Positions 12,001 through 15,000 of a stretch of DNA of 64,000 nt are shown here, in pieces. Position numbers: made by a program. The stretch comes from Harriotta raleighana. Its lineage: Eukaryota. Position 1 is the stretch's first letter. The number at the start of each line of letters is the position of its first letter. The stretch covers positions 7,137 through 71,136 of the forward strand of contig JBNZDD010013198.1 in NCBI GenBank assembly GCA_050575255.1, written 5' to 3'.

Positions 12001-15000
12001 ATAGACTGCAAATAGTTGAGCGCACGCATTGATCCTTGTGGCACTAAACTATTCATATCCTGCCAATCAGCCCTTTCACAGATGTCAGACTAACTGGTCT
12101 ATATTATTCCATGTTTTCCTTCCCACCTTTCTTAAATAGCAATGTTATGTTTGTGACCATCGAATCAATGGTAACCATTCCAGAATCCAAGGAACTTTGG
12201 AACATCAGAAACAAAGTGTCTACTGCAGCCACCTCTTTTAAAACCATAGGATGCAGATCATTAAGTCCAGGGGGTTCATTAATGTTTAATCCAATTTATT
12301 TCATTACTACTATTGCTTTACTGATGGCGATTTCTACAAATTACTCACTATCATCAGCATCTTGGTGCCCCTATATTTTCGGTAAATTTTCAGTTTCTTG
12401 CAGCGTAATGATAGAAGCCCAATATTTTACTGAGTCTGTTCAAATTGTTTAAGCATTATAATTTCCCCAGGCTCTGCCTGGAATGGACCCACATTACTTC
12501 TGATAGTCACCTCCTCTTTATGTACTTGTAAAAACGCTTCCAACTTGTCTTTTTTTTCCAGTATACTTTACACTAATATTCAATTTTCTCCTTCTTGAAC
12601 AGTTTCTTGCTTTCTTTTTCTGCTGATCTCTAAAGACCACCCAATCCTCAGGATTACCAACAACAAAATAATGCTTGTATAGCACCTTTCACGTCAGAAT
12701 GACGTGCCAAGGTGCTGGACAGATAGTGCTTCAGACCCGATCTCATGACAGGGGATGGGGAGAGATGTGGGGATTCGTAGATGCTGATGGGTCCATGGAA
12801 GAGGAGAGATTTGAGGCTGGGCATGAAAGAGGCCACAGAAAGGGCAAGGTGGACGGAATATGGGATGGAATTCCAGAGTTTAGGGGCAGAGTAGCTGAAG
12901 GCTCACCTGCCAATGGTGGGGTGGATGGGTCGGAGGACGTGAAGCAGGCCAAACCCTGCTGAGAGGAGGGAGCGGGAGGGTTTATAATGAGACAGCATGT
13001 CACAGATGTAGGGTGGGATGAGGTTGTAGAAGGCTTTAAATGTGAGATCCAGTATCTTAAATTGGATCCTTCTTATAATGGGGAGACATTAAAGTTGGTT
13101 GAGGATGGGGGAGATGGGATCTCAGAATTTTGATCGGGATACGAGATAGGCCACAGAATTTTGGATTATTTGCAACCTGTGGAGGGAGGAATTGGGAAGG
13201 CCGACAAGCAAGTTATTTGCCTAGCGAAACTGGGATATAATGAAGGCGAATGCGACAGTAATAGTGGAGATGCTTTCTTTAGAATGAGTAACTAAGGAGG
13301 ACGAAATGCATCCTGTGATACAGCATAAAAATATGATGGGATTTTCTTTAGCTGAAATGCACCTGATCAACCCTGTGTGCTTTCGGCTTGTTGCGAAGCT
13401 GCGAATCATAATCTTCAGTATTAGTTAAGCAGGTTGAGTGTCTCCAGGGAATGAATGCAACTTCAGTTACACACACCAGCTGATTTCACTTCACAAGTGA
13501 TATACATTTGGGGATCTTTTCTCAATAATTTTTAGAACAACCACAACTATTTTCTATGGCACAGTGCGCTTCTCATGTGATAGAGTCTCCAATTTTGTAT
13601 GTGTCGTAAATAGTTTAAGCTTGAGGGATCCAAAAATCTAACGAAAATTCATTCAGTTAAATTTCGTACCACTGAGAGAGCATGTAGTTTCCCCATGTGT
13701 GTGACATAATGATGACGAGGGGTGAAATTGTTCAGTGAAGCTTTCCCACTTACTGTTAAAAAGACACTGGCTTTTCTTCTTGAGCATCATCATCTTGTCA
13801 GTCAGTGTTAGCAACTGACTGTACTGAGAGGTGGTATCTGGTTCTCTGCCAGGCTGACAGCTCTGCTGATTTACAGGATTAAATTCTAACCCACTATACT
13901 GGAGACTGACAGTGAAATACATTGCAAGCAATTTTACTTAAATGCTTATTTAGAATGAAAAGCTAAGGAGACTGAACTGCCGATTTAGATTGAAGTTAAA
14001 GATGCATTATGGTATTTTGTGAAGAAAATACCCCACACATGTGTGTATGCCTTCTGTTCCAGAAAAAGGGAGATTTCCACTTTTAATAGATTACATTTGT
14101 GTCTGGTTTCGATATTTCAGCGAAAACAATAATTTGCACCTCAGGTTAGGGTTTCAGGTGTAAAAACGCTTGGTCTGCAACTTGCTCTCCCACACAGTCT
14201 TCAGTGTTAGAGACATATTGACGCTGCTTTGCAGTTCATCAAGATGGTTTCTAACAAAAAGATAATTCTCAAAATAGTGCAAGAGATAAGGACAAGAAGC
14301 ACAATTGGGAAATAATTATTGTGAGTTGGACAACGGTTGTGGTTTAATTAGCGGATTGGATAGTTCTTCATTGATAATAAAGAAACTTAAAAACAAACCA
14401 GTGCTTTTCATTGTGAATTAGTAGAAGTGTATATTTCATCCAGCAATATTTGTTTCATCCTCTCTACCTCCGTGTATGTGTGCAGTGAGATGTTTAATCC
14501 ATCGTCATTGTGTACGTTTGTGTATATGTGTGTTTCTTTGTCAAATCCTGAGACTGCCTGCTCTATCCTTGTTTGCGAGTGATGGGGGAGGTTTGGAATA
14601 TCCCACTGTGTCTCTGTGTATATATACACATTTGCCTAAAATGTGGGCTCGTCCGGGATTTGAACCCGGGACCTCTCGCATGTTTATTTAATTGTTAACC
14701 CCCAAAGCGAGAATCATACCCCTAGACCAACGAGCCACGTGTACAACACACAGCTGAAATTTCAAACCATGAAAATGGTAAAATAATTCTTTGTTGATTT
14801 ACTGCAAACTTATGAAAATTCGTAATGATCTTCAACTCGAATTGTGAAATGTAAAGAACACAGAACTCTTGGGACCTGTCCACAGATTGCAGTAAAACCA
14901 GCGTGCCTAGTGGCTAAGTATTGGTGATATGTGAATTTGGTGTTTAATATAGTGTCAGACTGTCAGTTTAGCTCAGCTGGCAGAACTCTCACATTGCCTT

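What the first reader, a model, noticed from the sequence alone, without database searches (positions are those of the whole stretch)
14645..14736. Apparently intact vertebrate tRNA-Pro(TGG) gene carrying a spliceable intron
Seen: the exons match canonical tRNA-Pro. A 20-nt insert (GGTTAACAATTAAATAAACA) sits exactly at 37/38. Its third-from-last base (A) pairs with U32, and U33, U34 and G35 can pair with the preceding A, A and U. A Pol III terminator follows. Established: TSEN substrates have 37/38 introns and this anticodon-intron pair, and vertebrate intron-bearing tRNAs are mostly Tyr-GTA, Ile-TAT, Leu-CAA and Arg-TCT. Intron-bearing Pro-TGG is typical of fungi. Inference: this lineage keeps or gained a Pro tRNA intron, so proline decoding may depend on TSEN/RTCB and may produce circular intron RNAs.
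Basis: partly seen in the sequence, partly recalled or inferred. Interest (0 to 1): 0.8.

Follow-up and report, generated by a model that had tools for sequence, protein, structure and literature searches.

The report
Proline tRNA gene with an intron
A cartilaginous-fish genome region holds one intact proline tRNA gene split by a 20-base intron at the standard splice position, beside four decayed sister copies with the same insert, so the intron is old and the intact copy seems to have been kept by selection.

Summary
On the minus strand, 14736..14645 holds a 36 + 20 + 36 nt tRNA-Pro(TGG) gene (ARAGORN). Unspliced, it scores 48.5 bits against Rfam tRNA. It has a perfect cloverleaf, no internal T4 and a TTTT run 4 nt downstream.

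New here: the window holds four more Pro-like copies, all on the minus strand (B 22440..22349, C in two pieces, D 41691..41600, E 39870..39781). All carry a homologous insert at the same site and have homologous flanks. The insert therefore predates several DNA-level duplications.

Flanks of A, B and C differ by about 20%. Copy A has 0 of 72 exon changes on its own branch, against 9.7% in its flanks (P about 7e-4). Its intron changed at the flank rate, and the other copies decayed.

This points to a selectively maintained, hence spliced, intron-bearing gene.

The receptor genes in the window match chimaera and shark proteins best. Whether proline decoding depends on splicing could not be tested, because no vertebrate genome collection was available.

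The parts
14645..14736 (-). Copy A: intact tRNA-Pro(TGG) gene with a 20-nt insert (whole gene, 92 nt)
   Evidence: ARAGORN. cmscan RF00005 48.5 bits, E 1.2e-9, full model. Stems 7/7, 3/4, 5/5, 5/5.
14701..14736 (-). Copy A 5' exon (nt 1-37 in tRNA numbering, 36 nt)
   Evidence: Exact-match search found the same 26-nt core in copy B and near matches in C and D. 0 A-branch changes in 36 sites.
14681..14700 (-). Copy A intron (20 nt, 75% A+T) at 37/38. Antepenultimate A faces U32.
   Evidence: 2 A-branch changes in 20 sites, close to the flank rate. No T4 run.
14645..14680 (-). Copy A 3' exon (nt 38-73, 36 nt)
   Evidence: Unique in the window at up to 3 mismatches. The only site where B = C differs from A has A's base in D and E.
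14638..14641 (-). TTTT run 4 nt after the gene (Pol III terminator-like)
22349..22440 (-). Copy B: decayed Pro(TGG)-like gene with a homologous 20-nt insert. TTTT retained.
   Evidence: 6 of 72 exon differences from A; acceptor 5/7, T stem 3/5. Not called tRNA at E<=10.
19624..19784 (-). Copy C, 5' piece: upstream block, 5' exon (19685..19650) and the first part of the insert
   Evidence: nhmmer 142.5 bits.
19324..19383 (-). Copy C, 3' piece: end of the insert, decayed 3' exon (about 19377..19342) and TTTT. It is separated from the 5' piece by about 250 nt of rearranged sequence.
   Evidence: nhmmer 27.8 bits.
41600..41691 (-). Copy D: decayed Pro-like gene, anticodon reads AGG, homologous insert, no T4. 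It lies 261 nt downstream of a Phe-GAA gene.
   Evidence: 11 of 72 exon differences from A; T stem 2/5. Not called tRNA.
39781..39870 (-). Copy E: decayed Pro-like gene, anticodon loop damaged, homologous insert, no T4. It lies 260 nt downstream of a Phe-GAA gene.
   Evidence: Not called tRNA. The coordinates I gave for E were wrong, so ignore its E rows.
14737..14826 (-). Upstream block shared by all five copies (about 90 nt before the gene)
   Evidence: Alignment A1. The nhmmer profile match starts here. Homology upstream of the gene argues against retroposition.
16160..16232 (-). tRNA-Phe(GAA) 1423 nt upstream of copy A, the partner gene of the ancestral Phe-Pro unit

Best explanation
Copy A (14736..14645, minus strand) is a working nuclear tRNA-Pro(UGG) gene of a cartilaginous fish that carries a canonical tRNA intron.

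Proposed mechanism (inferred):
- RNA polymerase III transcribes all 92 nt from the internal A and B boxes and stops at the TTTT run 4 nt downstream.
- The tRNA splicing endonuclease measures from the intact mature domain and cuts after G37 and before U38. U32 pairing with the antepenultimate A of the intron presents the 3' site in a 3-nt bulge.
- The RTCB-type ligase joins the halves into an ordinary 72-nt tRNA-Pro.
- The 20-nt intron itself drifts freely.

Shown here:
- The gene is the survivor of an old head-to-tail array of Phe-GAA + Pro units copied at the DNA level.
- The insert was already present in the common ancestor of all five Pro copies.
- Four copies have decayed, while A has been held unchanged.

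Inferred, not shown: transcription, cleavage, ligation and use in translation.
For: 1. Intact gene. ARAGORN calls Pro(tgg). The unspliced sequence scores 48.5 bits against RF00005, above the gathering score of 29, over the full model. All acceptor, anticodon and T-stem pairs are standard. There is no internal T4, and TTTT sits at +4.

2. Intron geometry fits the published definition: between N37 and N38, complementary to N33-N35, extended by a pair between C32/U32 and the antepenultimate A/G (passage in PMC10275265, section 11; also PMC10485636). Here that is U32-A(-3), U33-A, U34-A, G35-U.

3. The insert is old and inherited. 5 of 5 Pro-like sequences in the window carry a homologous insert at the same site, although flanks differ by 19-21% among A, B and C and by 33-39% upstream between A/B/C and D/E.

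4. Purifying selection on A's exons. In a 3-way alignment, A-branch changes are 80 of 827 flank sites (9.7%), 2 of 20 intron sites and 0 of 72 exon sites, once the single site where B = C differs from A is polarised with D and E. P(0 of 72 at 9.7%) = 6.6e-4. Fisher exact gives 0.0018 against flank, 0.028 against B (6/72) and 0.0006 against C (11/72).

5. Exons of the other copies change at or above the flank rate. B has 6/72 differences from A. D and E differ from each other at 10/72 exon sites, against flank differences of 5.7-10.6%. None of B, D or E is called tRNA at E<=10 under the same settings. The region is therefore not simply slow to mutate.

6. Homology extends upstream of the gene: more than 1 kb for A/B/C and about 90 nt for all five. 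The copies arose by DNA duplication, not retroposition.
Against: - No expression or splicing data were available.
- The pairing pattern is within chance: at least 4 pairs in 10.4% of shuffles and 6.4% of window 20-mers.
- The thermodynamic model prefers a different register. The anticodon-intron pair has probability of about 0.02, and the whole pre-tRNA folds no better than shuffles (z = -1.6).
- 4 of 5 copies in this array are dead, so the array as a whole is decaying and A could be the last to go.
- The selection test rests on one gene of 72 sites. If the true neutral rate were 3%, P rises to 0.11.
- Gene conversion from an intact donor elsewhere could mimic selection at this locus.
- Rfam with default filters missed the gene.
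- That the exons equal the canonical vertebrate sequence is recalled, not tested.
- I did not score the joined exons.
Confidence: 0.62

Rival explanations
1. Copy A is an inactive or barely used gene. A 20-bp insertion in the anticodon loop of an ancestral Pro gene disabled it, the dead unit was then duplicated, and A's exons look intact by luck or because gene conversion from intact Pro genes elsewhere refreshed them.
For: 4 of 5 insert-bearing copies in the window are clearly decayed. The pairing is within chance and is not the preferred fold. [quoted passage not shown]
Against: 0 of 72 exon changes on A's branch against 9.7% in its flanks (P 6.6e-4), while A's intron took 2 of 20. Conversion from an intronless donor across the anticodon arm would remove the insert. 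Conversion from an insert-bearing donor implies that an intact insert-bearing gene is maintained elsewhere. The insert can be placed at the one position where eukaryotic tRNA introns lie.
Confidence: 0.22
2. The gene is kept for a role that does not need splicing. It might act as a TFIIIC or Pol III binding site (boundary element), or as the source of a tRNA-like RNA with a long anticodon arm.
For: Conservation alone does not say which function is selected. Passages in PMC10275265 (section 11) mention tRNA genes acting as transcription barriers.
Against: A DNA-binding role would constrain only the A and B boxes. Here all 72 exon sites, including every stem pair and the anticodon, are unchanged.
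Confidence: 0.08
3. The five copies are members of a tRNA-Pro-derived SINE or another retroposed repeat, and the insert is part of the element.
For: The elephant shark genome is known for very many tRNA-derived repeats (passage in PMC8450103: over 9500 tRNA-Ala-like hits). A reverse-transcriptase fragment lies at 33651-34004.
Against: Homology runs upstream of the tRNA 5' end in all five copies, for more than 1 kb in A/B/C. The copies sit in one orientation in a local array, paired with Phe genes. nhmmer finds no further copies in the 64 kb.
Confidence: 0.03
4. Assembly or sequencing artefact.
For: The window has 19 single-N positions, 9 of which sit inside two-copy near-identical repeats that look like unmerged contig ends.
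Against: The nearest N positions to copy A are 3161 and 21350. Five copies that differ by 6-39% all carry the insert.
Confidence: 0.01

Closest known systems
Canonical intron-bearing tRNA gene families of animals (Tyr-GUA, Ile-UAU, Leu-CAA, Arg-UCU), spliced by TSEN and joined by RTCB
   Same: Short intron between N37 and N38, an anticodon-intron pair from position 32 to the antepenultimate purine, complementarity to N33-N35, an intron sequence free to drift, and an intact mature domain (PMC10275265 section 11 passages; PMC10485636 passages).
   Different: The isoacceptor is Pro(UGG), which is not among the families named for animals in PMC12168002 section 12, where it would fall under 'other tRNAs'. 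No intron-dependent modification is known for it. Splicing is not shown.
Budding-yeast tRNA-Pro(UGG) genes, all 10 of which carry an intron
   Same: Same isoacceptor and same insertion site (PMC4090602, passage in section 15: 10 genes for tRNA-ProUGG among the intron-containing isodecoders).
   Different: Fungal lineage and the 5'-phosphate ligation pathway. I made no sequence comparison, so homology of the introns is neither claimed nor tested.
Lineage-specific tRNA intron gains in yeasts (Lachancea thermotolerans Ala-UGC, Kluyveromyces lactis Gly-UCC)
   Same: An intron at the canonical site in an isodecoder whose relatives lack it, read as a 'recent' gain (PMC4090602, section 18).
   Different: Those cases rest on whole-genome comparisons across species. 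Here only one 64-kb window was seen, so gain versus retention cannot be decided.
Tandem tRNA gene arrays with decaying members in fish genomes
   Same: Head-to-tail Phe + Pro units with graded decay. Four Phe genes score 61.7-72.2 bits, plus a relic at 24068-24200.
   Different: Every Pro member carries the insert (5 of 5).

Membership tests
Eukaryotic protein-spliced (TSEN) tRNA intron | Intron lies between N37 and N38 | tested here: met
   36 + 20 + 36 layout with G37 and U38. ARAGORN's alternative placement at 36/37 is equally allowed by the letters.
Eukaryotic protein-spliced (TSEN) tRNA intron | Anticodon-intron pair: C32/U32 with the antepenultimate A/G of the intron | tested here: met
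   U32 faces A(-3). Chance gives this in 50-65% of trials.
Eukaryotic protein-spliced (TSEN) tRNA intron | Helix between N33-N35 and the intron that leaves the 3' site in a bulge (bulge-helix-loop) | tested here: inconclusive
   U33-A, U34-A and G35-U are possible. That structure is 3.2 kcal/mol worse than the minimum-energy fold, and its pairs have probability of about 0.02. At least 4 pairs occur by chance in 6-10% of trials.
Eukaryotic protein-spliced (TSEN) tRNA intron | Intact mature domain for the ruler mechanism | tested here: met
   Full-length match to RF00005 at 48.5 bits. All acceptor, anticodon and T-stem pairs are standard.
Eukaryotic protein-spliced (TSEN) tRNA intron | The intron is actually excised and the exons ligated | not testable with these tools
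   No RNA data. Inferred only from exon conservation.
Cytoplasmic tRNA-Pro(UGG) gene | Cloverleaf with anticodon TGG, G37, and a Pol III terminator with none inside the gene | tested here: met
   The A-box and B-box consensus is recalled and was not scored.
Cytoplasmic tRNA-Pro(UGG) gene | Exons identical or near-identical to the vertebrate tRNA-Pro isodecoder | not tested
   I compared them with no reference sequence, so identity is my recollection. The joined exons were not assembled or scored.
tRNA-derived SINE | Homology among copies begins at the tRNA 5' end; copies are dispersed and have a retroposon tail | tested here: not met
   Homology extends about 90 nt upstream in all five copies and more than 1 kb in A/B/C. 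The copies form a local array.

The most novel reading that the evidence does not exclude
A holocephalan-like cartilaginous fish carries, and selectively maintains, a canonical 37/38 intron in its tRNA-Pro genes, possibly in both the UGG and AGG isoacceptors. This would be a vertebrate tRNA intron outside the four conserved families (Tyr, Ile-UAU, Leu-CAA, Arg-UCU). It would be either a gain within vertebrates or a relic lost elsewhere. If most or all Pro(UGG) genes of the species carry it, decoding of CCA/CCG codons would depend on tRNA splicing. Intact and decayed copies of known relative age lie side by side, which would give a natural series for studying how a eukaryotic tRNA intron arises and what constrains it.
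Probability: 0.3. Interest if true: 0.65.

Novelty: new member of a known kind. Interest (0 to 1): 0.5.

Why it matters
tRNA introns in animals are described as confined to a few conserved families, and how a eukaryotic tRNA gene gains an intron at the canonical site is an open question (PMC4090602, section 18).

This locus offers a vertebrate Pro gene whose insert fits the published rules for a spliceable intron. Internal evidence shows that the insert is old and that the gene carrying it has been preserved.

If confirmed genome-wide and by RNA data, it would add a lineage-specific substrate for TSEN/RTCB. It would also give a dated case of intron gain or retention in vertebrates.

If intronless Pro genes are plentiful in the same genome, it remains a minor curiosity: one more isodecoder gene that happens to need splicing.

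Tried and rejected
- Rfam at gathering threshold on the whole window did not list the gene. The sensitive run did, so the miss was a filter effect.
- Energy folding of the whole pre-tRNA and of the anticodon arm did not recover the anticodon-intron helix. I keep this as evidence against, not as a refutation, because the helix is four weak pairs.
- The shuffle test showed that the pairing is not beyond chance, so I dropped it as an argument.
- ARAGORN with introns allowed produced a false 'tRNA-Leu(gag)' with a 414-nt intron at 22349-22859. It is stitched from copy B's 3' half and unrelated sequence, and I rejected it.
- An nhmmer profile of the five copies found no sixth copy in the window.
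- Eight literature searches found no paper describing an intron-bearing tRNA-Pro in a vertebrate or cartilaginous fish. The 'shark' hits in PMC3978253 were an author name. The zebrafish tRNA paper PMC11417395 says nothing on tRNA introns.
- Supplements are closed. The SI figures of PMC12168002 may give intron frequency for Pro in animals, and I could not see them.
I therefore made no comparison with orthologous loci or other Pro genes of this species, and I did not use the prokaryote scan.
- I searched the exons one by one and ran the covariance model on the unspliced gene.
- I took the window for a cartilaginous fish, not human.
- The E rows used wrong coordinates and are disregarded.
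Full report
**What is there**

- The finding lies on the minus strand. Read 14736..14645, the sequence is a 36-nt 5' exon, a 20-nt A+T-rich insert and a 36-nt 3' exon.
- ARAGORN calls tRNA-Pro(tgg), 92 nt.
- Rfam at gathering threshold on the whole window listed four tRNA-Phe(GAA) genes, two tRNA-Leu(AAG) genes and a weak tRNA-like hit, but not this gene.
- With the more permissive filters on 14545-14836, the unspliced gene matches RF00005 over the full model at 48.5 bits (gathering 29, E 1.2e-9), with a 23-nt insertion in the anticodon loop.
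- On the unspliced coordinates all pairs of the acceptor (7/7), anticodon (5/5) and T (5/5) stems are standard, and the D stem has 3/4.
- There is no T4 run inside the gene, and TTTT lies at +4..+7 (14641..14638).
- With the insert placed between nt 37 and 38 the loop keeps G37. ARAGORN's intron mode places it one base earlier, giving A37. The letters allow both placements, and the canonical one is chosen on biological grounds.
- That step is left out.
- That the exons equal the usual vertebrate tRNA-Pro is my recollection, not a tool result.

**The host**

- Two intronless rhodopsin-family receptor ORFs (4350-5276 minus, 60651-61622 plus; Pfam 7tm_1) match 'probable G-protein coupled receptor 139' proteins best.
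- The top hits are from Callorhinchus milii at 66-71% identity. Many shark and ray proteins follow at about 50%.
- I take the window for a cartilaginous fish on the chimaera side, not for human. The species itself is not identified.

**The key new observation: four sister copies**

The exon searches and a self-comparison showed four more Pro-like sequences, all on the minus strand:

| Copy | Position | State |
|---|---|---|
| B | 22440..22349 | decayed, TTTT retained |
| C | 5' piece from 19685; 3' exon at about 19377..19342 | broken by about 250 nt of rearranged sequence inside the insert |
| D | 41691..41600 | decayed, anticodon reads AGG |
| E | 39870..39781 | decayed, anticodon loop damaged |

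- An nhmmer profile of the five finds exactly these and no sixth.
- All five carry a homologous insert of about 20 nt at the same place (alignment A1).
- Homology runs upstream of the tRNA in all five (about 90 nt) and for more than 1 kb among A, B and C. The copies therefore arose by DNA duplication, not retroposition.
- D and E each lie 260-261 nt downstream of a Phe-GAA gene, in a 1.82-kb unit that is 87% identical between the two.
- A has a Phe gene 1423 nt upstream, and B has a decayed Phe-like relic at 24068-24200.
- The ancestral unit was thus Phe + Pro with the insert, and the insert predates all these duplications.

**Is copy A merely the last to decay?**

- Flank p-distances are 19-21% among A, B and C. 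They are 33-39% (upstream) between A/B/C and D/E, and 6-11% between D and E.
- In a 3-way alignment of A, B and C with 827 flank sites, branch-specific changes are 9.7% (A), 8.6% (B) and 9.2% (C).
- In the exons, B has 5 and C has 11 branch-specific changes in 72 sites.
- One exon site has B = C differing from A. At that site D and E share A's base, so it is a shared B+C change.
- A therefore has 0 of 72 exon changes, while its intron took 2 of 20.
- The chance of 0 of 72 at 9.7% per site is 6.6e-4. It would be 0.025 at 5% and 0.11 at 3%.
- Fisher tests give 0.0018 against flank, 0.028 against B (6/72) and 0.0006 against C (11/72).
- The exons are not intrinsically slow to change. D and E differ at 10 of 72 exon sites although their flanks differ by only 6-11%.
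- Under the same sensitive Rfam settings, B, D and E are not called tRNA at E<=10. C was not tested in this way because it is split.
- I conclude that A's mature sequence has been held by purifying selection, or by conversion from another intact insert-bearing gene, since the duplications, while its intron drifted.
- A tRNA with 20 extra bases in the anticodon loop cannot decode (PMC10275265, section 11 passage). Selection on the whole mature sequence therefore implies that the insert is removed.

**Does the insert look spliceable?**

- The published description is: intron between N37 and N38, complementary to N33-N35, extended by a pair between C32/U32 and the antepenultimate A/G, giving a bulge-helix-loop (PMC10275265, section 11 passage). 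The proximal pair is the only conserved requirement, together with recognition of the mature body (PMC10485636 passages).
- Copy A fits this: U32-A(-3), U33-A, U34-A, G35-U, leaving C, A and U38 as the 3' bulge.
- This is weak evidence on its own. At least 4 such pairs arise in 10.4% of shuffles of the insert and 6.4% of window 20-mers.
- ViennaRNA prefers another register, at -6.6 against -3.4 kcal/mol. The named pairs have probability of about 0.02, and the precursor as a whole is not unusually stable (z = -1.6).
- The two A-branch changes in the intron lie outside the proposed helix, but the numbers are too small to weigh.

**Comparison with what is known**

- In animals about 7% of predicted tRNA genes have introns. 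They are concentrated in Tyr-GUA (>90%), Ile-UAU (83%) and Leu-CAA (27%), with Arg-UCU also enriched.
- Humans have four spliced tRNAs from 28 genes (PMC12168002, abstract passage and section 12).
- Pro(UGG) is a classic intron-bearing family in budding yeast, with 10 genes (PMC4090602, passage in section 15).
- Gain and loss of canonical introns in single isodecoders is documented among yeasts, and its mechanism is unknown (PMC4090602, section 18, part 1 read).
- Eight searches found no paper on an intron-bearing tRNA-Pro in a vertebrate.
- tRNAscan-SE would call this gene automatically, so it may already sit unremarked in GtRNAdb. I could not check that, and the supplements of PMC12168002 were closed.

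**Verdict**

- It is a new member of a known kind: an ordinary canonical tRNA intron in an isoacceptor family unusual for vertebrates.
- These questions stay open:
  - whether proline decoding depends on splicing
  - whether the intron was gained or retained
  - whether circular intron RNA forms

Noticed in passing
window 1513-1765, 21352-21498, 22869-23239, 34553-34981, 38699-38904, 49276-49602, 56413-56713, 58266-58429: All 9 of 9 high-scoring two-copy tandem repeats (92-98% matches) contain a single N close to the junction of the two copies. 9 of the 19 single-N positions lie inside such repeats, and 3 more lie just before one. This looks like unmerged overlapping contig ends. The N positions were left as they are.
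   Followed up: partly
window 49326-49409 and 49489-49572 (minus): The two tRNA-Leu(AAG) genes, 163 nt apart, lie in one of those two-copy repeats (97% matches), with an N at 49438 between them. They may be one gene counted twice.
   Followed up: partly
window 16160-16232, 34411-34483, 40131-40203, 41953-42025 (minus); relic 24068-24200: There are four tRNA-Phe(GAA) genes with graded scores (72.2, 67.5, 65.1, 61.7 bits) and one decayed Phe-like relic. Together with the Pro copies they form a head-to-tail Phe + Pro array. The 39483-40398 and 41296-42221 units are 87% identical.
   Followed up: partly
window 41660-41662 region of copy D (minus): Copy D reads anticodon AGG instead of TGG, with the same insert. 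Either an insert-bearing Pro(AGG) gene once existed or a pseudogene mutated at position 34. E's loop is too damaged to tell.
   Followed up: partly
window 14737-14826 and the matching stretches before copies B-E: An upstream block of about 90 nt has runs of invariant columns in all five copies, although the downstream flanks of A/B/C and D/E are hardly alignable (55-64% different). It could be an upstream control element of the Pro genes or simply the edge of the duplicated unit.
   Followed up: no
window 7224-7286 (minus): A weak partial tRNA-like match (RF00005 32.2 bits, model 5-66) that ARAGORN does not call. It may be a pseudogene or the head of a tRNA-derived repeat.
   Followed up: no
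window 4350-5276 (minus) and 60651-61622 (plus): Two intronless GPR139-like receptor ORFs bracket the tRNA array. Their best hits are Callorhinchus milii at 66-71%, followed by hundreds of shark and ray paralogues at about 50%. They belong to the large cartilaginous-fish expansion of this receptor family.
   Followed up: partly
window 33651-34004 (plus): Reverse-transcriptase fragment (Pfam RVT_1, E 1.8e-6, below the gathering score), probably a LINE remnant.
   Followed up: no
window 22349-22859 (minus): ARAGORN in intron mode reports a 'tRNA-Leu(gag)' with a 414-nt intron. It is a false call that borrows the 3' half of Pro copy B.
   Followed up: yes
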